Assembly (NCBI GenBank): GCA_050273025.1
Contig: CP158635.1
Coordinates: 4,340,001-4,404,000, forward strand
DNA length: 64,000 bases
Source: Cenococcum geophilum
Taxonomy: Eukaryota
Direction of reading: 5' to 3'
How positions within the stretch are numbered: the first letter of the stretch is position 1; each line of letters starts with the position of its first letter. Below are positions 1 through 51,886 of this stretch, piece by piece. The notes under the pieces were generated by a model. That model was not told where the DNA came from. It worked only from the letters and a program-made list of their open reading frames with translations, and ran no database searches. The position numbers and the translations under genes were made by a program.

Positions 1-1007
1 AGGTAAAAGGGACTAACTTAGAGTTACTATAGATATGTATGTAGAACCGAAAGTATACCTATTAGGTTAAACGGTCTCGCTAGCGGGCTTAATTGAAGTC
101 GCGTAGCTAAAGACCCTAGTGCTAGCCAGTATTACCGCAAGGGAAGAGTAGTATATAGTAGAGCGGTATATATACGGCATGCGTTAAGTTAATACGGCAG
201 TACTGCGGCTGCTTATTAGGCGCATAACGCTCTATAAGCATAATATTACGGAAGCTAGCATTACTATACTTATCTAGTATAATAACGGCCACCTTATTAC
301 TTATTAGGAGGTTCTTATAGCAGCGATTAGCACTAGCCTTTAAGATAAGCCGTATTTATAGATTTAAGATAATCTATAACGGGGCCGTTACGGGCTAAGC
401 CTAAAGCCATTCCCTTGCGGTTTAATAAAGAGCGATAAAAGGGTTCTATATCTTAGATAGTATAGCAGTAAGGTACTATAAAATAGTTGTATTTAGCTAG
501 GTATTAAAATAGGCCTATAGCCGGATATTTATAATATAACTAGGATTATAAAAGTATAGCTAGGCATATCGTAGAGTAGTATCGGTAGGAGGCTCTAGCG
601 GGCCCTATAGATAGTAAAGCTTACTATATATCTAGAAGCAATTTGGGCCGCCATAGGCTATACTATAGTTAGTAATGGTATAGTTTACGGACGTAAAAGC
701 TAATGCTATATTATATGCGCGGAGCTACTTTTTAAACTACCTAGTAGAAGTACTATAGGACTCTAAAAGATCGCGTAGATATTCTAGTAGAGGCTAGGCA
801 TCAGGATTTTTTTTTTTGGGCGCGTTGTTGCAGATTGCGGCAATTTGCTGCAAACTGTGCGATTTGCGTGGTCGTATATGGTCGTTAGCGATTCGCGCAA
901 ACCGCGCGTTTCGCAACAAATTTACAGCTTCTGCTAGTAAATTGCAGCAAAACGCTCAACCACCAAACCAATGCCAGCAAAACGCTACCCTATAAATAAA
1001 TAGCTCG

Positions 1008-1145
1008 CAAACTGTACAAATTATAAAAACTATACGAATTATAAAAACCGTACGAATTGTAAAAACCGTATAAATTGTAAAAACTGTATAAATTGTAAAA
1101 ACTGTACAAATTGTAACTATATAAATTGTAACTATAAATTATAAT
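1008..1145. repeat. ~17-18 bp tandem repeat (AAAACTGTACAAATTGT)
   Basis: Several imperfect direct copies are visible. Confidence 0.8.
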
Positions 1146-1289
1146 TATATTACATAATAACCAAATTATTACATATTCCCATAGATTTCTATAATATACT
1201 TTTAAATATATTTATATTATAACTATATAAAATGTAGAGCTATCTACTTTGGGCGTCAAGGGGGAAGCCTCTCGCAGAGGCTCCAAATT

Positions 1290-1495
1290 ATCTACCTACC
1301 TACCTGCCTGCCTGCCTGCCTGCCTGCCTACCTACCTGCCTGCCTACCTACCTGCCTGCCTACCTACCTGCCTACCTGCCTGCCTACCTGCCTGCCTACT
1401 TGCCTACCTGTCTGTCTGTCTGTCTGTCCGTCTGTCTATACCTACCCGTTTATGCCTACCTATCTGTGCCTACCTGTCTGTGCCTACCTGTCTAT
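1290..1495. repeat. (CCTA/CCTG)n-(CTGT)n tetranucleotide microsatellite
   Basis: Directly visible. Confidence 0.9.
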
Positions 1496-1567
1496 GTTAC
1501 CTTGATTCGATCGATCGATTGAATCGTTTATCGTGTTTGCTGGCTGGTCGTTTGAACGGTTGTTGTG

Positions 1568-1960
1568 TGGCTCTGGCGACGGTCGTGTGGCGATGACGAC
1601 GGTCGTCTGGCTCTGACGGTTGTCTAGCTCTGGTGACGGTTATCTGGCTCCGGCGACGGCCGTCTAGCTCTGACGACGGTCGTCCAGCTCTGACGACGGT
1701 CGTCCAGCTCTGGCGACGGTCATCTGGCTCCGGCGACGGTCGTCTAGCTCTAACGATGGTCATCTGGCTCCGGCGACGGTCGTCTAGCTCTGACGACGGT
1801 CGTCTGGCTCTGACGGTCGTCTAGCTCTGGCGACGGTTATCTGGCTCCGGCGACGGTCGTCTAGCTCCGGCGACGGTCGTCTAGCTCTGACGACGGTCGT
1901 CTGGCTCTGACGGTTGTCTAGCTCTGGCGACGGTCGTCTGGCTCCGGCGACGGTTGTCTG
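1568..1960. repeat. 18/21-bp minisatellite (GGCTCTGACGACGGTCGTCT)
   Basis: About 19 imperfect direct copies, each with the internal quasi-palindrome ACGACGGTCGT. Confidence 0.9.
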
Positions 1961-2129
1961 CTGGCTATCGTTCTGGTGTCTTCCTAGGTAGGGAGAATGT
2001 AAGGAAGGGTAAAAAATGAGGTGGCTACCTAGGTGTATATAGGGGGTATACTTGGCAGAGGCACGTGTAGAGGCTATCGGGAATATAGCGGGGACCCGAT
2101 AGTAGTGTATCGCGCGCACACACAAAGGC

Positions 2130-2995
2130 TTTGTGTAGAGCTTCGTGTAGAGCCTCCGTATGCAGGGCTTCGCGCAGAGCCTCGTGTAGAGCTTCGCGCA
2201 GAGCCTCGTGCAGAGCCTCTATATGTAGAGCTTCGTGTAGAGCTTCGTAGAGCTTTATGCAGAGCTTCGTGTAGAGCTTTATATAGAGCTTTGTGCAGAG
2301 CTTCGTGTAGAGCTTCGTGCAGAGCCTCTGTACGTAGAGCTTCGTGTAGAGCTTCGTGCAGAGCCTTGTGTAGAGCTTCGTGTAGAGCTTCGTGCAGAGC
2401 CTCGTGTAGAGCCTCTATATGCAGAGCTTTGTGTAGAGCCTCGTGTAGAGCCTCGTGCAAAGCTTCGTGTAGAGCTTCGTGTAGAGCTTTGTGTAGAGCT
2501 TCGTGCAGAGCTTCGTGCAGAGCTTCGTGCAGAGCTTCGTGCAGAGCTTCGTGCAGAGCTTCGTGCAGAGCTTCGTGCAGAGCTTCGTGCAGAGCTTCGT
2601 GCAGAGCTTCGTGCAGAGCTTCGTGCAGAGCTTCGTGCAGAGCTTCGTGCAGAGCTTCGTGCAGAGCTTCGTGCAGAGCTTCGTGCAGAGCTTCGTGCAG
2701 AGCTTCGTGCAGAGCTTCGTGCAGAGCTTCGTGCAGAGCTTCGTGTAGAGCCTCGTGCAAAGCCTCTGTACGCAAAGCTTCGTGTAGAGCCTCGTGTAGA
2801 GCCTCGTGCAAAGCTTCGTATAGAGCTTCGTGCAGAGCTTCGTGCAGAGCTTCGTGTAGAGCTTCGTGTAGAGCTTCGTGTAGAGCTTCGTGTAGAGCTT
2901 CGTGTAGAGCTTCGTGCAGAGCCTCTGTACGCAGAGCTTTATGTAGAGCCTTGTGTAGAACCTCGTCTAAAGCTTCGTGTAGAGCTTCGTGCAGC
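2130..2995. repeat. 12-bp satellite (GTGCAGAGCTTC)n, about 70 units
   Basis: Perfect core of about 20 units at 2503-2745, with degenerate flanking units. Confidence 0.95.
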
Positions 2996-4177
2996 GCTTT
3001 ATGCAGTTTTGTGGTATTTTTGTTACATTTTTGTTGCATTTTTGTTGCAGCCAAAAATTAGGGTCTACTTAAGTCGCTTAAGTCGCAATTTTAGTAATTT
3101 ATATAAAGTAGCCTGCAAATCGCTGCAAATCGCCGCAAATTGCCAAAATTGCGACTTAAGCGAGTTAAGCAGACCCCAATTTTCGGCTGCAACAACGCGC
3201 CCAAAAAAAAATTTCCTGATGGGATAGAGGGAGGATTATATTACTATATTTACAATAGGCTTTAAACCGTAGATTACTAGGCGGTAATATATTAACACGT
3301 TTATTAACCTAATATAGGGCTGCGTAGAAGTTATAGGTAATATCTATAGGACCGAGATCTAGCTACTCCATAATATGGTAGACTATAGTAATAGGACCAC
3401 AATCTAGCTGCTCCGCAATAGGGCGGACTATAGTAATAGGCCTAATATCTAATTGGCCCGTAATAGGGCGGACCGTAGTAGGCCGCGGCTAGATAGATAT
3501 GGGTGGTATAAGGAGGCAGTAGCGGAGGTAGTAGCGGCTGTAGTAGCGGCTACAGTTTAGTTTATAGGCTGCGGAGGGTTTGCTAAAAGTCGTTGTTAAA
3601 ATCGTCCTTTTTTTTCTCCTATATATAGAGTTAGAAAGGCAATAAGTAAAAAAAGAGAATAAAAAGAATTAACTCTATAAGATTTACAGGTTTTATATAG
3701 AGCTCTTTAGCGGGTTAGTATAAAGTTAGCGGAAGGGCGACTCTATTTATAGGCGTTGCAAAATATATAATTAGAAGGCATTTAGATAGTAGGTAGGGAG
3801 TATAGTAGGTAGGGTAGTAATATATAGAAGATATTCGAGTAGTAAGGGGTAGAAAGAGGCTATAAGGTTGTAAATTTAATGGGGTAGCACGTAAGGTAGC
3901 ACGTCCCCTTATTATATAACCCGAACCAATTTTTAACTAATTAGAACCTTAGGTTTAACCCAAACTTAGTATATATTAAATTATAGGAAGCAAATCTAAT
4001 AGCGCGAAAGCTTATTTCCGCTATAGTGGGTATATTAGTAAAGGAGAGTGAGATTTTATGATAAGGTGTTATTATTATATAAAGGAAGGCGTGGCTATAC
4101 CTTAAGCTTATAATATTTAATTTGTATATATAATAGGTGCCTGCAAGTAGGCGTATACTTAAGTTAAAAATCTACTA

Positions 4178-5896
4178 CTAGTTAAGCTCAAGGCTTTTAC
4201 CTCTTAAATTTCTCTACTTCTTAATATCTACTTATAATCTCTTAGCAATTACCTCTAAAACGCCTACCTTAATTATTACCTTAATTAGTGTCTTTTCTTA
4301 CTTATCTGGCTTCTACTCTCTAATTGTCTTTAAATCCCACCACTTAGTAAAAGCAACTTAGTAGATAGTATTAATATCTTCTTTCTAGGCCTCTAAGTCT
4401 TCTGCCGACTTCTTCTACTATTTAAAATACTCCTATAAATCTGCAAGCCAATTAACGCCTTAAGGATATAGTAGAGGAGTAATTAGTAATAACTTTAAGC
4501 TAGAAAGCGAGGCTGCTAGAAGTATAAATAGGCGCTTATAGTAACTACTAGTTAGGTTAATATAGAATTAATTTATAATGCCCGGAGTACTTAGTATAGA
4601 GGCTTTAGAGGTAAGCTACTTCTTCTTCTTATTACCCGTCTTCCTCTTAAGAAGCTTCCATATTAAGCTAACCGAAGTATATTTAGTAGTAAGACTATAA
4701 TCAATTGCCCTACCTTATTCTCTTATATCCTTTTACATAAGTTTATAATTGACTTACTAATATATTTAGTACCAATTACTACCGCAGTTCTTATAACACT
4801 GCTACTGTTAAGATACCTTTATAAAGCTTATTTTAGAAATTATAGAGAAAGCGGTAATATTACTATCTATAGGCTATAGTATACTTAGTAAGGAGCTCTA
4901 TAAGGATTCTAGAGCTGACTATAAAGCTAATTATATTATTATAGAGGAATAGGCAGGACTATAAGCTACTTACTACTTAATTATCTTAATATAATCTATA
5001 ATAAGTTTAACTTTAAGCCGCTTAAATAAGCTATTATTGTAATTATAATACCCTTTCGCTACCCTTAAGAGTTCTTCTTTAGAATTAATCTAATTAACTA
5101 TATAGCTTAGGTTAAGATAAAATGCAAATTTAGTGGAATTTAATCGCCTAGTAAGCTTCACGGTAGTATTATATAATTTCCTTTAAAAAGTATAACTAGT
5201 AAACTTTTACTATAAAGCCTTATTAATTTTAAGAAGAACTTTGCAATTATATATTACTAAAAGGCTAAGGCGAGCCTTAGGAAATATATAAGCTAATATA
5301 ATAGTTAAGCGACTTATCTTTTAAAGCTTTACTAATAACACTAGGCAATACTTAAAGAATAAGCCTCTGCCTAGAGGCTTTACTATATATTCCTCCTGCT
5401 CTATTTAAAGCCTTAAAGCTAACTCCTCTTTACTTTTTACCGAAGGCTTATATACTAAAGTCTTTAGCAATTAAGGCCTCTTAGCGGGCGGCTGGCTTTA
5501 TAATATAGGGGGAGCTACACCCACACGCCGCGGAGCTCTTACTATATTCTGTTCCGGCGGTATATAAAAGTATTAAACTTCCTTATTATCGTGCTCTTCG
5601 GCAGCCGCCGGATTAGTTAGAATCTTATTAAGCTCGCCTAAAGTAAAATAGGTAGCTTATTATAACGCATGTGGGGTACTATATATTAGCGGTAGAGAGT
5701 AGTTAAGCTGTATATTAAGTTGGCCACTATATGCGGACGGAAGATTTACGACCGTACTTATACTTAAGCTCTGCATAAAAGGAGGTGGACGACCGATTGC
5801 TACAGAAGGCGGTACTGGTAACAATCGTAATCGCTAAGTAGGTAGGCAACTAGAGGGACTACCTGTAGAGGTAGGAGCAGGGCGTTTGGAGCTCAT
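4178..5896 (-). pseudogene. RIP-inactivated accessory ORF2 of the Tc1-like element; unknown function, Cys/His cluster plus helical C-terminal domain
   Basis: Candidate ATG at 5896 (MSSKRPAP...). De-RIPped motifs WQCxxxCxxNWC...KLxxKDxREWxxAI, STPGIxNxFxI, PQGVDWLADLQEYF and WDL...RLQVDIKKW are homologous to 48765-50850. Start and stop positions are inferred. Confidence 0.7.
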
Positions 5897-6108
5897 ATTG
5901 ATGAGAGAAAGAAGCTTTACAACGCCACGATCTGGAATAGATATCACGACTTTTGGTATGGGAGGGAAGTTTAGAATAGCTTTAAAATTAAGCTCTGAGC
6001 TCCGAATTCGATGTGGGCCGTGGCTCAAGCCCTGGCCACGTACTACACCACTTTCTGCTAGCTCTACATACTAATTTAGCTGCAGACGAAGCGAAATTAG
6101 GTGTGTGG

Positions 6109-6406
6109 TGTTGCGCCCCCCCGGGGGGGGACACCGAAGCTCGTACAGACTGTAGAAGAAGAAGAAAGCTTATAACGATATTACGTGAAAAGGCTTGACG
6201 CTAGATAAGGAGAAACCTTATTTACTATCTATATAGAAAATAAGCAATATATAACGCTTTAGCTCTAACCTACTAAAATAATAGAAAGTATACGTACTGG
6301 CCGCTTAGCGAGCGGATAAGTAACCTTTCCGTATAGGGTAAATAGCGCCGTGGATATTCGCGAGTATTGGTTAGTAGGGCATGGTCACGTGCGGCTCAGC
6401 GACTCA
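6109..6406 (-). mobile_element. Probable solo LTR
   Basis: TG...CA termini (TGTTGCG...GACTCA), ~300 bp, flanked by GTGG/GCGG (4-bp TSD with one transition). RIP-like composition inside. Confidence 0.5.
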
Positions 6407-7020
6407 GCGGGCAATCAGCTACATCATGCACAAAAACAAAAAAAACGGGTATGAGACCTGGGAAAGTGAAGTAGCAATTGAGGCAGATTTCTTCAGGCAC
6501 CACAGTACGCAAAATAGCAAACATCACGCTAAAAATCGAGCATACTGCCACGAACGATTACGCATTCTGTGACCACTAAGATTTAAATACACTAGATGTT
6601 TGTCGTCCTCTCTTACCCTTCCTCTGTACATAACCCCCGCCACGTCTTTGCGCCAAACCGGAGGTACCCCTAGCAAGCAATCCTTGAATATAAAAGTGAA
6701 GCGAGGAAAAAGAATATATCATACAGAAGTCGCAGTCAGCAAAAACCCCTCAAAGGATAAAAGGGGTCCTGCCGCCGCTTGAAGTAATCCTCTCTTGAGC
6801 CAAGGATAACAAACCGGACAAGGGCAACGAGCTCATGTTCCGAGAAAAATAAAGGTAGCGACAGAGACCTTAAAGCCGCATCTCGCCGGATGGATATAAG
6901 AAAAGCCTGTTGCTATGCATCAAGGAACACCGCCAGAAGCCTCCGTCTTGGACGCCGTACTAAAACAAAGCCAATAACATTAAGCTGTGGAAAAGGAAAT
7001 ACATATTGTAAATTATTGGA

Positions 7021-46728: not shown

Positions 46729-47459
46729 ATTTTAGCTTAAGTAGTAGGGAAGTAGTCCGCATTATCTTTAAGCTTATCCTATAATTAAAGCTTCTAATTA
46801 TTAAATATAGGGTTAGTTCTATCTATAAGCAATAAGGGGTCCACAACTTTTGCGGACCGCAATAATACTAATACTATATATTAGGCTAGGGCCTTAAGGA
46901 TTATAGTAAGTCTTTAGGTATTTAATAACTCTTTACTAGGTATAGGGGGTTCTTTAGCTTTAACCAGCTCCTAAAGTTATTTAATTTTAGTATTAGCTGC
47001 TATAAGCTCTACCTAGATGTTTAAGTTAGTTACTGTTTTATTATTAGAGGTATTTAAGGGTCCTATAGCTGCTTTGCCGGCCGCTATAGTTTTTAGCATA
47101 GTAATACGGTTATTAGGGTAACTTTTAGTAGGATTCTATAGGGGTTCTGGTTTATACATGTTCTATAGGTCTTATTATTCTTTTCTATTCTTCTAGTTTT
47201 ATTTTATTCTTTAAGTTCTAGTAATATAGTAATGTGCACGACCAGCTTCTACCCCCCCCCTAGAAAAATATTATTTCGCTTCAGTATGCGAGCTCGCTAA
47301 ATTGCCACTAACTGTATATAGTAATTGTAGCGAAGCCGTATGCTTGGCTGTAAGAACCTTTGCTTTTAACGGGCTTAAAGCTATTTATAATTGGTCTTCC
47401 TCCGCAGTATCGTGATCTTTGTTAAATATCGTAAGGTTTCTATCTATACTATTTAAAAT

Positions 47460-48494
47460 ATGGCTTCGCGAATAGGCCTATATTAGCACGCCCTAATTAA
47501 GAATCTTCTTTAACTTAGAGTAACTTAAGCGGAGTGTGCCTTTACCGCTAGTTGTATAACTCGCTTAATTACCGCGATTAAGAGGAACTTGCGGATATTT
47601 AGATTAACTTAGGCGCCTCTAAATAGTAAAGGTGGCCAGTTTTTACTAAGCAATTAAATAATGGTGGTAATACTAATGCGGCTAGAGGAAAAGCTAACTT
47701 TCTTTAGCGATGAGTTATAGTGGTTAATTTATAATGTCTTTGGTGTTATAGTAAGCCGCTATATAATATTTTAAGAGCTCTATTTAGCTAGCTGGATAAG
47801 AAAGCGGGTAAGCTAATTAGATCCTCCTGTTATAGAGCCTAGAGTAGCTTATATAAAGTAATATTGCTAGGTAGCCCTAGAGCGTAGCTCTTACAATTAT
47901 AATATATATTTTGCTATTATATTACAGTATACCGCTAATTAATTGGTATTTATGGATAAGTTAGGTATAGATTCGAAGACGGGCGTACGGAAGACTGGCT
48001 GGGCTTTTTTTAGTATTGCACTAGTGTTATATACGCCATATAATTAGGGTAAGACGAGGCTTAATATACTGCCTGCGTATATAGTTAACGGCGTACTAGT
48101 AGCCTTAGTATATAAGGGCTTAATAAATAGCGAAGGCTTTAAGTTCTGGGTGGCAAATACTCTTCTACCGCGGTATAATCCCTTTCCTACTAAGCGATTA
48201 GTAGTAGTTATAGATAACGCCAGCTTTTATTACTTAGAGAGGATATAGGCTCTCTTTAACGCCTTTAGAGTTAAGCTTATATATTTATCCGTGTACTTAC
48301 CTAATTTAAATCTAATTAAAGAGTTTTTTGGAGAGCTAAAAGCTTTTATTCGGCGGGAGTGGTTCTCTTAAATAGAGCACCCTAAAAGCTTTAACTATAG
48401 CTTTAAAGCCTTTCTTCTTTAGTATATAGATAAGGTTGGTAGTAAGAGCGAGAGCGTAAGAGGATATTTCTGATATAGTGGGTACAATTGCTAA
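47460..48494 (+). pseudogene. RIP-inactivated Tc1-like DD34E transposase (~344 aa)
   Basis: ATG at 47460. LVFMD(ES)G, VxDNASF and YSPDLNPIEEFF (de-RIPped), with 34 residues between the second D and the E. In-frame stops are RIP-type. Confidence 0.9.
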
Positions 48495-48764
48495 GGGTTT
48501 TAGTGTAAGGAAAGATCGATTTTTGGTAGCGTTCTTAATTATATAAATATACTAAAAGGCTTTAATATCTTATATATATAGGGTATCTTTATTACTACAG
48601 AGGCGCTAGTAGTAAGGAAGACACCCTATATTTTACTAATTAAAGGTTATCTATGTCTTAAAAAACCCCTATAGGGCGTCTCTACTACTGTAGTGATGCT
48701 AGCAGTAATAGAGACACCCTATATTCTGCTAATTATCTATATCTTAGAAACCTTTAAGCTAAGT

Positions 48765-50850
48765 TTAATATTTATTTGCCTACTTCTTTAAATCCTTTTA
48801 TAGCCGCCTTGTAACACCTAATTTAATACTAGCCTATATAAGTTCCTTAATAGGATTAGCATTATTAGATTTATTATATAGGAGCTCTAAATCCCATCTT
48901 AGATTATAGACGATTTTGTGTACCGCCTTAAAGTTAGCCTCCTAGTTAAGATTGCTAGATATACTCTACTTCTAATATACAAAGAACTTCTCTAAATCCT
49001 TTATATAGTTAATACCTTAACGTGTTCCACTACCGAGCTACGCACTCTACCGAGCTGCGCACTCCAAAAACCACCAAAAATCGGAAAAACTGCACCTTAA
49101 TATCTCAACAATGGCTTAATAATAAATTCTAAAATTTTATAATTAGCCTTTTATACTTATTCTAAACCTCTTATTAGATTTAAAAAGTAATCTATTAAGT
49201 AGCTCTAGAGATATCGCAATTTAGCTTAAAATTAGGGGCTAAAACCTAATATCTTAATAACGGCCAGGCTTATTACGCTAGAATTTTATTAAGAGTCTTA
49301 ATATAGGTATAAAAGGCTAATTATAAAATTTCGGAATTTATTATTAAGCCGTTGTCAAGATATTAAGGTGCAGTTTTTCCGATTTTTGGTGGTTTTTAGG
49401 GTGCGTAGCTCGGTAGGGTGCGCAGCTTGGTGGTGGAACACGTTATAGGCGGCGTATTAGTAATATAGGTAAGGATAATAATATTAGTCGGCTTACTGCT
49501 ATAGGAGTTTGCTAATTTGGTACTAGACTTATAGAGCTAATATAAAAGTAATTAATAACGCCTAGAGTACTAGTAGTAGAGCTCTTACCGGAGGCTAATT
49601 GGCGTACTCTTCTACTGTTATTTCCTTTACCTACTATTCTCTTAGTAAGCCGCGTAGTAAGCTAATGAGGTGGATTCTAAATATTCGCAATGCCTTGCTA
49701 AATACTAGTTACCTATTCTCTTAAGTCCTTATTTATTAATTTAATGTCTACCTAGCTAAGAACGTAGTACTAATTAATATTTAGGTAGCGCTTTTTATAA
49801 AGCTAATATCTAGTAAGCTTAACCCGCAATCTTATTAAATTGGTAGCGTTACTAATAAGAAGTATATAAGGCGTTAAGCTCCGCTCCAAAATCTATAAGG
49901 GCGTTAAAACTTTATTATAAAGTTAATTAAGCATTAACGGATAAGAGCTAACTCTAGAATGAAAGGCTACTAATTAATTTATAGTTAGGGCATATATAAT
50001 TAAGAGGTTAATAGTAAGAGCCTTAATCGCGCTACTTTTATTAATATGCTTCGCCCATAATATAAGCTAAGTATTAATCTTCTGCCACTAGGCTATAACC
50101 TTAACTTCTATTACGTTAAATCTAATATTACGAACGCCTGCGTACTAAGTGTTAATTTTAGCCTTAATTGGCTAAAGCTTAATATAAATACCTTACTCTT
50201 AATAATATAGCTCTCTCTTATAAATAGGAAAGACTTAGAGTCGCTAAAGATTATAAAGCTAAAGACTTATACCAATAAGAGTTTTAGTAAAAGGCGAATC
50301 CTTTAGGTATTAAATTACTATATTATAATTATAAGTAATAAACACGCCACCACTTCTCCTCTCTATATTATTAATCTCACTCTTAAAACGTAGGCGAGGC
50401 GGTGGCGGAATTAGCTTATCCTTATACTTACTTATTAAGCGGGCCCTTAGGGGTAAGTGAGAGGCTAATAGTAAGTAAGTAATTGGAGGAGCATAAGCCC
50501 GAGGAGCATAAGCATGAGGAGTATAAGTACGAGGCCGAGGAGCATAAGCAACTTCCTAAGAGGTCGTGGCTTAATATAGTGGTGTTAATACTAGCGGCTT
50601 CTATGTCAAATACGGTGACTTATAAGATCTTAACTAAGGTAGTTTACCGTGCTGACTTTGGTAGTATCGCCAGCCTTCTTTCTCCTCCTTAATGGCCTCC
50701 GCTGCGGTTTCCGAATCGTTATCTATTTCCTTAAGCTCCTCTAGTGTAAAACCCGGCTAAACGGCGTTATATTCGCGTCTTGGCGGCTGTTATATTATAT
50801 CTAGGTAATAGCTTAACGGTAGTAGGGGCTTAGGTAATAAGGAGGGAGGA
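48765..50850 (-). pseudogene. RIP-inactivated accessory ORF2 of element G, interrupted by a MITE
   Basis: The frame is continuous after removing the MITE plus TA. Motifs WLCEKRCPN...KLxNKDLREW...I, STPGVINxFxI, PQGIDYxKDLEKFF and WDL...RRLQKDLKKW. Start is approximate. Confidence 0.75.
49020..49443. mobile_element. 424-bp MITE of the Pogo/Fot1 type
   Basis: ACGTGTTCCAC...GTGGAACACGT termini, long (~150 bp) inverted arms, TA TSD (49018-49019 and 49444-49445), non-coding. Confidence 0.92.
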
Positions 50851-51886
50851 AGGTAATTTTATTAAGTTTGTTAAGAAGGAGGACTCTCGCCCGTTAATTA
50901 AGCCGCTGCGCGTTTTAAAGGATGCATATTAAAGGCAAATTGATAATAGTACAACACGATTTTAAGTGGATGTTATAACTTTGGTAGGTTAGGTAGGTTC
51001 TATATGGCTTTAATTTAATTGTCCTAGCAACCAGGACGACCCTTGCGTGCAGGCACATGCGTTCGCTACAATTACTATATACAGTTGGTGGCAATCTAGC
51101 GAGCTCGCGTGCCGAAGCGAAATAATATTTTTCCAAGGGGGGGTAGAAGCTGGTCGTGCACATCGCTGTAGTCTTTAAGTCTACTTTTATGTTCTATTAT
51201 TATTTATAGCCTATAAATATTTTTAAGTTCCTTTTTAGAAAGAAGAGTAGATAAGCTTTAAATAATATTAGTAACTTAATTAATTAAGGCATAAGTATAG
51301 TAAAAGGGACGCGTAAGCCTATATAAGTAGTAGTCTATAAATAAGGATCTAAAGCTAAAAAAAGAAAAGAAGATAAAAGGTAGTGCCGCTTAACGTTATA
51401 TATAATCCTCTAGTTATATAACAACAATTATCTAAAACTATATAAAACTATTTGCGATTATCCACCACAATCTACTAATATCTACTAGCCACAATCCACC
51501 AGTTTTTACTAGTTTTTACTAGTTTCTACTAGTTTCCACTAGTTTTCACCCGCGCCGTAATAACTAGCTATATTAGATTATTATAGCTAATAGTTACTCC
51601 TCTATAATTCTAAATACTAAATATGTCTAATAGGCTTTATATTTTATTAGATACCTTCTTAATAAAGGTACTTCCGCTTTATAGTATAGTATTCGCCTAT
51701 CTTTATTATAGAGGGCTATTACTAGGCATAGTTCTAGCGGCTACGCGCGAATGTAAACCACCGTCATTTAACGTATGCCTTTTTTGCGATATATATATCT
51801 TAGGGGGATTCTTTAGGTATTTTTCAGGGTTCTTTTAATTAGTTTTAGTCTTTTTAGGCTAGGTGCAGCAAGAGTTCCTTTTTTTT

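What the first reader, a model, noticed from the sequence alone, without database searches (positions are those of the whole stretch)
3975..6435. Second, divergent family member: ORF2 conserved at protein level 45 kb away
Seen: the same layout (transposase end ...HFRHSGY on plus, ORF2 on minus) with colinear protein blocks although the DNA differs. Pairs (this copy vs element G): *VNYKLM*KDIRE*GRAI vs *VDIKLINKDLRE*VTSI; STPGIIN*FYI vs STLGVINYFYI; P*GVNWLADL*EYF vs L*GINYIKDLEKFF; WDL...KRL*VDIKK* vs WDL...RRL*KDLKK*. The subterminal CGAAGCGAAAT is also shared. Inference: ORF2 was kept under purifying selection through the divergence of two subfamilies, so it was functional for the transposon.
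Basis: seen in the sequence. Interest (0 to 1): 0.8.

Follow-up and report, generated by a model that had tools for sequence, protein, structure and literature searches.

The report
Second gene shared by fungal Tc1 transposons
Two mutation-wrecked fungal cut-and-paste transposons 45 kb apart share, besides the transposase, a second gene of about 580 codons that stayed recognisable as protein after its DNA had diverged beyond recognition, so this normally one-gene transposon class has a two-gene lineage whose second protein has no known function.

Summary
Window 3963-6152 is the right two thirds of a dead Tc1/IS630-type transposon wrecked by RIP (repeat-induced point mutation). It keeps the last codons of the transposase, a convergent 573-codon ORF2 on the minus strand, and a long terminal repeat. 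Element G (47227-51168) is a complete relative with the same layout.

- **Similarity:** the two ORF2s share no detectable DNA similarity, but align end to end at about 29% amino-acid identity. tblastx gives E 8.9e-9. The best controls were 0.002 (58 natural AT-rich tiles), 0.004 (150 codon shuffles) and 0.007 (150 dinucleotide shuffles).
- **Reading frame:** each ORF2 keeps one frame, and their RIP-made stops fall at the same codons.
- **Other copies:** in nine environmental contigs of the first subfamily, every copy with enough flank (6 of 9) has ORF2 facing a DDE_3 transposase.
- **Start codons:** both genes start at the inner edge of the long terminal repeats.
- **Function:** ORF2 has no Pfam family, no intact relative was found, and only its C-terminal helical domain folds confidently.

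ORF2 is therefore an ancestral gene of the transposon. An accessory role in transposition is inferred, not shown. The scan noted similar two-gene Tc1-like elements before, including one in this genome. The Helitron claim could not be tested.

The parts
3963..4051 (+). Last codons and stop (4049-4051) of the transposase of element A. Homology to the family stops at 3963.
   Evidence: blastn to L002, L005, L007 and L009 ends at 3963. Reading ...IIGSKSNSAKAYFRYSGYISKGE*. The transposase halves of L007 and L002 match only 3963-4091 here.
4175..5896 (-). ORF2 of element A. It has 573 codons in one frame plus the ancestral stop at 4175-4177, and 37 RIP-type stops in the first 572 codons.
   Evidence: It is 63-74% identical to the ORF2 of L002, L004, L006 and L007.
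5888..6152 (.). Long terminal inverted repeat of element A (ORF2 side). It holds the leader and the ATG of ORF2 (5894-5896) at its inner edge.
   Evidence: Window 6155-5888 matches both ends of L002 (523... and 4314-4047). Window 6154-5940 matches the far end of L007.
6087..6097 (+). Subterminal motif CGAAGCGAAAT, shared with element G.
6153..6154 (.). TA beside the end of element A (half of the target-site duplication).
   Evidence: Family alignments end at 6154-6155.
47227..51168 (.). Element G, complete. TA duplications lie at 47225-47226 and 51169-51170. The terminal repeats, about 47227-47359 and 51037-51168, begin with CAGCGATGTGCACG; the left copy is RIP-changed to TAGTAATG.
   Evidence: (I3, I10).
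47460..48494 (+). Transposase of element G, 344 codons plus stop, RIP-dead. Pfam DDE_3.
   Evidence: PF13358, 53.2 bits, cut-off 28.6.
49446..50927 (-). ORF2 of element G, first 494 codons.
   Evidence: Aligned to element A's ORF2.
49020..49443 (.). Nested MITE inside G's ORF2. Its arms are about 174 bases and it has a TA duplication at 49018-49019 and 49444-45. Taking it out with one TA restores the ORF2 frame.
   Evidence: (I2).
48729..49019 (-). ORF2 of element G, last 96 codons plus stop (48729-48731). The end ...DIDN* matches the end of the less mutated fragment P0006.

Best explanation
Window 3963-6152 is a truncated, RIP-killed copy of a second subfamily of a two-gene Tc1/IS630-type (Pfam DDE_3) DNA transposon. 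Element G (47227-51168) is a complete copy of the sister subfamily.

In both subfamilies the element has long terminal inverted repeats and inserts at TA. It carries two convergent, intronless genes: a transposase of about 342 residues and an ORF2 of about 575-590 residues. Each gene starts about 235-260 bases inside one end, at the inner edge of the repeat, so each repeat probably supplies the promoter and leader of one gene (inferred).

ORF2 is an ancestral gene of the element. It was kept as a protein while the subfamilies diverged, about 29% identity against 44% for the transposase.

The protein has four parts:
- a Pro/Ser-rich N-terminal stretch of about 160 residues that the model leaves unstructured (pLDDT below 50), with one conserved acidic motif, F-x-x-(E/G)-E-L-x-E-I;
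- a middle domain with a Cys/His/Trp cluster (GCxNC ... WxCxKxCxxxNWC);
- a basic patch;
- a confidently predicted helical C-terminal domain of about 95 residues.

Most likely role (inferred, about 0.35-0.4): an accessory factor of transposition. It would bind the element's ends or the transposase, as the second proteins of Harbinger or En/Spm elements do. All copies seen are dead.
For: **Homology of the two ORF2s**
- tblastx E 8.9e-9, against 0.002, 0.004 and 0.007 in three kinds of control.
- Global alignment score 171, against -96 +/- 21 in codon shuffles.
- Stops coincide in 10 columns against 2.3 expected.

**Coding nature**
- Each copy keeps a single frame.
- 725 of 847 variable columns among 10 copies are pure C/T or G/A.
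- The de-RIP consensus keeps 7 stops in 580 ORF2 codons, against 37 and 47 in the other two frames of the whole consensus.
- 48 database proteins match at E <= 1e-3. All are stop-free pieces of 41-241 residues. Together with 5 more they make 53 fragments, 26 like A and 27 like G.

**Part of the element**
- 6 of 9 environmental loci show ORF2 facing a DDE_3 transposase. L002 has both repeats and TA on both sides. The other three loci are cut by a contig end or lose homology.
- The start codons sit 257-260 bases (A type) and 234/242 bases (G) from the ends.

**Not a host gene, as far as the searches reach**
- No full-length or cellular relative was found.
- No Pfam family matched.

**Fold**
- Residues 475-567 have pLDDT 79-91 and are helical.
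Against: - No intact copy of ORF2 was found anywhere, so nothing shows that the protein is made or needed.
- The middle domain did not fold: mean pLDDT 48 for the full length and 42.8 for the domain alone.
- The C-terminal domain matches only generic helical bundles. The best is Z 9.2, below the level that means anything for helical folds.
- ORF2 diverged faster than the transposase, with 131 gap columns against 10. That would also fit a passenger gene under weaker constraint.
- No RNA reads lie on the ORF2 body of this copy. The raw-read RNA run X21 gave 4 reads, all on the terminal repeat; a dead copy says little either way.
- Only two lineages carry both genes in my data, so co-divergence rests on one comparison.
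- With the whole window as subject, tblastx at E 0.01 did not list the A-G match.
Confidence: 0.8

Rival explanations
1. ORF2 is a passenger: a host gene captured once by the ancestor of both subfamilies. It was carried along and conserved for its own or the host's benefit, not for transposition.
For: - ORF2 evolves faster and with far more indels than the transposase.
- Earlier notes of this scan describe gene-carrying Tc1-type elements in this same genome (e1-7825776; not checked here).
Against: - No cellular or full-length homologue was found. The searches covered 1.8 billion representatives and three word-based searches. All 53 relatives are stop-free pieces of mutated repeats.
- Position, strand and length are the same in both subfamilies.
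- Its start codon sits at the inner edge of the terminal repeat, mirroring the transposase start.
Confidence: 0.12
2. ORF2 is a highly diverged second copy of the transposase gene. The element began as an inverted duplication, with two transposase genes in long inverted repeats, and one copy was repurposed. This would resemble CDS3 of Dici or the two-transposase Mucor element.
For: - The layout is mirror-symmetric: both genes start at the same distance from the ends, and in the A type the sequence around both ATGs still aligns (AATATG(A)GCTCC).
- Precedents are described in PMC13469147 (sections 8 and 14, and found passages, read).
Against: - Profile-profile comparison of ORF2 with the transposase gives probability 0.4% and 17 aligned columns.
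- No DDE_3 or HTH family was found in 45 ORF2 sequences.
- ORF2 is about 240 residues longer.
Confidence: 0.07
3. ORF2 is an element gene aimed at the host, not at the transposition chemistry. It could, for example, damp genome defence (silencing, RIP) or regulate copy number.
For: - The long N-terminus that the model leaves unstructured carries one short conserved acidic motif. That is the kind of feature used to dock on host proteins.
- ORF2 evolves fast.
Against: Nothing tested speaks for or against it. All copies seen were nevertheless killed by RIP.
Confidence: 0.2
4. The protein-level match is a by-product of RIP-skewed composition in two unrelated AT-rich sequences.
For: - Codon shuffles already give 22% 'identity' in global alignments, because composition is so skewed.
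- The A-G match is not listed in the whole-window search at E 0.01.
Against: - Three kinds of control are five to six orders of magnitude weaker.
- The global score lies about 12.7 standard deviations above the shuffles.
- Stop codons coincide.
- Less mutated fragments of both types align over the same motifs, for example P0006 against the A consensus at 38% over 215 residues.
Confidence: 0.01

Closest known systems
Fungal Tc1-like transposons of the IS630-Tc1-mariner superfamily (Pfam DDE_3 transposase). Impala, Molly and Pixie are named from memory.
   Same: - DDE_3 transposase of about 342 residues.
- TA target duplication, and ends beginning with CAG.
- Killed by RIP like other fungal repeats.
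   Different: - The element is about 3.4-3.5 kb, not under 2 kb.
- It carries a second, convergent gene of 575-590 codons.
- Its terminal repeats are long: about 130 bases in G and about 215-270 in the A type. They reach the start codons of both genes.
- As read, 35 residues lie between the second D and the E. I did not place the transposase on a tree.
Dici1/Dici2 of the yeast Diutina catenulata (PMC13469147; outline, sections 8 and 14, and found passages read)
   Same: A fungal IS630-Tc1-mariner element with TA duplication that carries extra coding sequences of no known family. Two diverged subfamilies keep the same gene order.
   Different: - Dici has three CDSs with the transposase in the middle.
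- Its terminal repeats are short, 8 or 33 bp.
- Its transposases are 432-478 residues.
- One extra CDS is a transposase relic with a homeodomain. Here ORF2 shows no likeness to the transposase.
TBE and Tec elements of ciliates (as described in PMC7325037; two passages read)
   Same: Members of the Tc1/mariner superfamily with more than one ORF. TBE carries a zinc-finger protein, and Tec has very long terminal repeats and one ORF on the other strand.
   Different: They have three ORFs, belong to ciliates, and one partner is a site-specific recombinase. I made no sequence comparison.
Two-protein cut-and-paste transposons: PIF/Harbinger (Myb-like partner), En/Spm (TnpA), MuDR (MURB). Recalled, not read here.
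   Same: This is how it may work: a transposase plus a second element-encoded protein that is not catalytic. The second gene is kept across subfamilies.
   Different: The transposase superfamily is different. ORF2 has no Myb/SANT or any other Pfam domain. No binding was shown.
Two-gene Tc1-like elements noted earlier by this scan (e1-7826315 in this genome; e1-7559328, e1-7559222, e1-7567630 and e1-7705820 in other fungi)
   Same: - A convergent second gene of about 590-700 codons.
- A Cys/His/Trp motif.
- Terminal repeats that supply the start of both genes.
- Dead by RIP.
   Different: Look-ups by sequence found no look-alike stretch, so I could not test whether these are the same ORF2 family. 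A 'SAM-like tail' was not borne out here. The only hint is an Atlas cluster at score 0.89, and the fold matches were generic helical ones.

Membership tests
IS630-Tc1-mariner superfamily, Tc1-like (DDE_3) elements | Transposase with the DDE_3 catalytic domain | tested here: met
   PF13358 scores 53.2 bits for G and 73.5 and 69.1 bits for the A-type copies L007 and L002. The cut-off is 28.6. The window's A copy itself keeps only the last codons of the transposase.
IS630-Tc1-mariner superfamily, Tc1-like (DDE_3) elements | TA target-site duplication | tested here: met
   G has TA at 47225-26 and 51169-70. L002 has TA on both sides. Element A shows only the right-hand TA, at 6153-54.
IS630-Tc1-mariner superfamily, Tc1-like (DDE_3) elements | Terminal inverted repeats enclosing the genes | tested here: met
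   (I3, I10).
IS630-Tc1-mariner superfamily, Tc1-like (DDE_3) elements | A single gene (transposase only) | tested here: not met
   A second convergent ORF of 573-590 codons lies inside the repeats, in both subfamilies and in 6 of 9 environmental loci.
Named DD34E (Tc1) versus DD35E (Hiker) and other clades | Spacing of the second D and the E; place on a transposase tree | tested here: inconclusive
   35 residues between D and E as read in G and L007. RIP may have changed residues there. No tree was made.
Dici family (PMC13469147) | Three CDSs with a central transposase of 432-478 residues, and short terminal repeats beginning CAGTCGGT | tested here: not met
   This element has two convergent genes, a transposase of about 342 residues, and repeats of about 130-270 bases. 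The paper's features were read.
Gene-capturing (Pack-type, transduplicating) Tc1 elements | The cargo has a cellular parent gene outside the element | tested here: inconclusive
   No full-length or cellular relative was found. Heavily mutated queries limit the reach of those searches, and no fungal genomes could be searched.
PIF/Harbinger-type two-protein systems | Myb/SANT-like DNA-binding partner protein | tested here: inconclusive
   No Pfam hit in ORF2 or in 45 relatives. The middle domain has no confident model.
   An Atlas cluster carrying SAM_1/SAM_2 scores only 0.89, at rank 12. No SAM family appears in Pfam scans. The fold search listed generic helical bundles, with best Z 9.2.

The most novel reading that the evidence does not exclude
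A widespread ascomycete lineage of Tc1/IS630 transposons needs both of its genes. Its long terminal repeats act as mirror-image promoter, leader and start-codon cassettes that drive a transposase from one end and, from the other, an orphan protein of about 580 residues. That protein (unstructured N-terminus with an acidic motif, Cys/His/Trp cluster, helical tail) is required for transposition, for instance by binding the subterminal CGAAGCGAAAT-type sites or bringing the ends together. That would make it the Tc1-superfamily counterpart of the Harbinger or En/Spm partner proteins.
Probability: 0.35. Interest if true: 0.7.

Novelty: new variant of a known kind. Interest (0 to 1): 0.5.

Why it matters
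Tc1/mariner elements are the textbook example of a minimal transposon: one gene between two repeats. Here a second gene has persisted through the split of two subfamilies, sits in the same place in every informative copy, and starts inside the terminal repeat. That points to a Tc1 lineage that depends on, or at least faithfully carries, a partner protein of an undescribed family.

If an intact copy can be found, the question 'what does a Tc1-type transposase need besides itself?' becomes directly testable in fungi. The case also shows that protein-level comparison of independently RIP-mutated subfamilies can recover genes that gene callers see only as scraps.

My three full-text searches found no paper describing this fungal two-gene layout. 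The nearest were Dici and the ciliate TBE/Tec elements. Subscription journals and Repbase were not searchable.

Tried and rejected
- **Whole genome:** none is held, so the left half of element A and the copy numbers could not be sought.
- **Whole-window tblastx at E 0.01:** it listed no A-G match. The targeted comparison with controls replaced it.
- **Word-based homologue searches:** the window ORF2 gave nothing and P0006 against longer proteins gave nothing. The 52-sequence alignment gave only 8 fragments of 46-224 residues.
- **Locus search with the alignment:** A single fragment was used instead.
- **Alignment A4:** it held one row that I cut in the wrong frame. It was not used, and A5 replaced it.
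- **Fold of the middle domain:** mean pLDDT 42.8, unusable.
- **Fold search of the full model:** only generic helical matches to residues 475-570, best Z 9.2.
- **Other comparisons:** the profile against PDB sequences gave one hit at E 0.23. Pfam on 45 members gave nothing above cut-off. ORF2 against the transposase profile gave probability 0.4%.
- **Self-association of the C-terminal domain (complex prediction):** no verdict.
- **RNA:**
  - X21 laid 4 reads, all on the terminal repeat.
  - X19 and X20 hold one identical 234-base contig at 5235-5468, which may be DNA.
  - There is no evidence of transcription.
- **Helitron left of 3963:**
  - I saw no hallmark.
  - I could not classify 3222-3962.
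  - 799-3221 is a separate element with 35-base inverted ends.
- **Earlier notes:** look-ups by sequence or place found no look-alike.
Full report
**Setting**

The window alternates between GC-normal stretches and AT-rich blocks of GC 0.30-0.34. These blocks carry the marks of fungal repeat-induced point mutation (RIP). No genome is held for the window, so the work rests on the window, public protein collections and metagenome contigs.

**Anatomy of the two elements**

*Element G* is complete.
- It runs 47227-51168, with TA on both sides (47225-26 and 51169-70).
- Its terminal repeats begin with CAGCGATGTGCACG. The left copy was changed by transitions to TAGTAATG.
- On the plus strand it carries a transposase gene of 344 codons (47460-48494). 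This matches Pfam DDE_3 at 53.2 bits, above the cut-off of 28.6.
- On the minus strand it carries ORF2, from the ATG at 50927 to a stop at 48729-31.
- A MITE (49020-49443, TA duplication) sits inside ORF2. My first excision removed both TAs and shifted the frame. Keeping one TA makes ORF2 a single frame of 590 codons.

*Element A*, the finding, runs 3963-6152 with TA at 6153-54.
- It keeps only the last codons of the transposase (...IIGSKSNSAKAYFRYSGYISKGE*, stop at 4049-51).
- After a gap of about 125 bases comes a convergent ORF2 on the minus strand (ATG at 5896, 573 codons, ancestral stop at 4175-77).
- That frame has 37 stops in 572 codons, against 65 in 583 codons of another frame.
- The stretch 6155-6435 of the finding is flank.

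**Is the similarity real?**

Evidence for:
The E-value is 1.6e-8, or 8.9e-9 for 4150-5900 against 48760-50850 without the MITE.
- The controls are far weaker. The best of 58 natural AT-rich tiles of the same window gave 0.002. The best of 150 codon shuffles gave 0.004, and the best of 150 dinucleotide shuffles 0.007.
- A global protein alignment covers both proteins end to end at 29-32% identity. It scores 171, against -96 +/- 21 (maximum -31) in 200 codon shuffles.
- blastn finds no DNA similarity between the ORF2 regions.
- The RIP-made stops coincide in 10 aligned columns against 2.3 expected, and 0 of 10,000 permutations reached 10. The scoring matrix penalises X-X pairs, so the alignment was not drawn to them. 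The coincidences mark shared Gln or Trp codons.
- The excess identity over shuffles is +9.7 and +9.4 points at codon positions 1 and 2, and +4.6 at position 3.

Evidence against:
- With the whole window as subject and E 0.01, the A-G match was not listed.
- Shuffles already reach 22% identity, because composition is so skewed.

**Relatives elsewhere**
- A profile of the two ORF2s, searched against 1.84 billion representative proteins, found 48 hits at E <= 1e-3. Of these, 18 are at <= 1e-10 and 2 at <= 1e-30. All are 41-241 residues long.
- They are stop-free pieces of mutated copies. With 5 more there are 53 fragments, 26 like A and 27 like G.
- None carries a name beyond 'hypothetical protein'.
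- Less mutated pieces show what lay under the stops. Examples are REW, KKW, and WQCHKNCSSNWCW in the A type against WRCKKHCPNANWCY in the G type.
- P0006, the cleanest G-type C-terminal half, is 38% identical to the A consensus over 215 residues.
- No full-length relative was found.

**The layout is a property of the family**

Searching metagenome contigs with fragment P0024 gave nine loci. They match window 3963-6154 at 75-90% DNA identity.
- In L002, L004, L005, L006 and L007, ORF2 is followed by a convergent transposase. In L008 the two are separated by a 2.25-kb inserted element with its own inverted ends.
- The other three loci are cut by a contig end (L001, L009) or lose homology inside ORF2 (L003).
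- So 6 of 9 loci, and all that could show it, have both genes.
- The A-type transposase matches DDE_3 at 73.5 and 69.1 bits.
- L002 is a full element with TA on both sides.

Among the ten A-type copies, 725 of 847 variable alignment columns are pure C/T or G/A. A de-RIP consensus, made and kept inside scripts only, leaves 7 stops in the 580 codons of ORF2. The other two frames of the whole consensus have 37 and 47.

**Terminal repeats and gene starts**
- Window 6155-5888 aligns to both ends of L002, and window 6154-5940 aligns to the far end of L007.
- L002's two ends are nearly identical for about 215 bases. Beyond that they match patchily up to the two start codons, whose surroundings still align: AATATG(A)GCTCC.
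- In L002 the ORF2 start is at position 260 from one end and the transposase start at position 258 from the other. In window A the ORF2 start is at 257. In G the starts are at 234 (transposase) and 242 (ORF2).
- That each repeat acts as an inward promoter and leader is my inference.
- The shared subterminal CGAAGCGAAAT lies 65 bases (A) and 55 bases (G) from the end, and recurs with one mismatch in G's left repeat.

**Relative divergence**

The A-type consensus was compared with the window's G copy.

| Gene | Identity | Gap columns |
|---|---|---|
| Transposase | 43.9% | 10 |
| ORF2 | 28.9% | 131 |

The transposases are still 71% identical in DNA over about 335 bases. ORF2 is therefore conserved but looser. 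With only two lineages carrying both genes, this is one comparison and not a test of co-phylogeny.

**What is ORF2?**
- No Pfam family matches the window copy, 10 fragments or 45 aligned members.
- The profile has no relative among PDB sequences; the only hit has E 0.23.
- AlphaFold2 on a 45-row alignment gives mean pLDDT 48. It leaves residues 1-159 without structure (pLDDT below 50) and gives a weak middle part.
- Only residues 475-567 are confident (pLDDT 79-91), forming a bundle of helices.
- Structure search with that model gives only generic helical bundles and coiled coils. The best is Z 9.2, under the level that is meaningful for helical folds.
- The middle domain folded alone was unusable, at pLDDT 42.8.
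- The ESM Atlas places P0006 at 0.98 in a 102-member cluster of ascomycete hypothetical proteins, probably the same repeat family. A SAM-domain cluster appears only at 0.89, which is a lead at most.
- ORF2 shows no profile likeness to the transposase, at probability 0.4%.

**Expression**

The raw-read RNA run X21, carrying the same species label as the best DNA holder (X1), gave 4 reads, all on the terminal repeat and none on the ORF2 body. About 12% of that run was read. Two RNA-labelled contig sets hold one identical 234-base piece, which may be DNA. This dead copy therefore shows no evidence of transcription, which says little about the living ancestor.

**Mechanism**

Shown:
- The element is a Tc1/IS630-type transposon with two convergent genes inside long repeats.
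- ORF2 is homologous in two subfamilies.
- ORF2 was a real open frame.

Inferred:
- ORF2 was under purifying selection.
- It served the element.
- The repeats drive both genes.

Its role is most likely that of an accessory factor, by analogy with the partner proteins of Harbinger, En/Spm and Mutator elements (recalled). The arguments are the Cys/His/Trp cluster, a basic patch and a helical tail that could mediate binding. I put this at about 0.35-0.4. The alternatives are a host-directed role, a captured passenger, or a repurposed transposase copy.

**Comparison with print**
- Dici1/Dici2 of a yeast are ITm elements with three CDSs; the authors call this unusual for the superfamily (PMC13469147; outline, sections 8 and 14, and passages read).
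- The ciliate TBE and Tec elements carry three ORFs (PMC7325037; two passages read).
- Passages found with my search terms in PMC4112212 and PMC3105345 did not bear on a second gene in Tc1 elements.
- Three full-text searches turned up no description of this fungal two-gene layout.
- The scan itself has noted such elements before, in this genome and in other fungi. I could not test whether their second genes are the same family.

**Verdict**

The finding is a new variant of a known kind. The function of ORF2 is open.

Noticed in passing
window 799-3221: A 2.4-kb element bounded by 35-base inverted ends (94% complementary) and filled with 12- and 20-base minisatellites. It is GC-normal and not RIP-like. 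Parts of it (1259-2104) resemble sequence beside or inside A-type elements in L002, L004 and L008.
   Followed up: partly
window 3222-3962: This stretch abuts the break in element A at 3963. I saw no Helitron hallmark and could not classify it. It holds three 45-base tandem units at 3346-3480.
   Followed up: partly
window 49020-49443: A palindromic MITE with arms of about 174 bases, 86% complementary, and a TA duplication. It is nested in G's ORF2 and is probably itself a Tc1/mariner-type derivative.
   Followed up: partly
window 48563-48750: A tandem and partly inverted repeat of about 90 bases lies between the two convergent stops of element G and overlaps the last codons of ORF2. Element A has only about 125 bases there.
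   Followed up: no
window 5984-6151: In the DNA contig run X1, summed contig word depth over the terminal repeat is 306-530, against 5-67 over the rest of the stretch laid. That may mean many extra copies of the repeat (solo ends or MITE derivatives). The tool warns that this depth is not a copy number.
   Followed up: no
L008 7165-9417: A 2.25-kb insertion with its own inverted ends (TACGTCAGGAAAACGGGAG...) sits between ORF2 and the transposase of an A-type copy.
   Followed up: no
P0043 and P0039: These are N-terminal ORF2 fragments that look barely RIP-mutated and diverge from both types. They hint at further subfamilies. The acidic motif F-x-x-(E/G)-E-L-x-E-(I/M) is kept in all.
   Followed up: no
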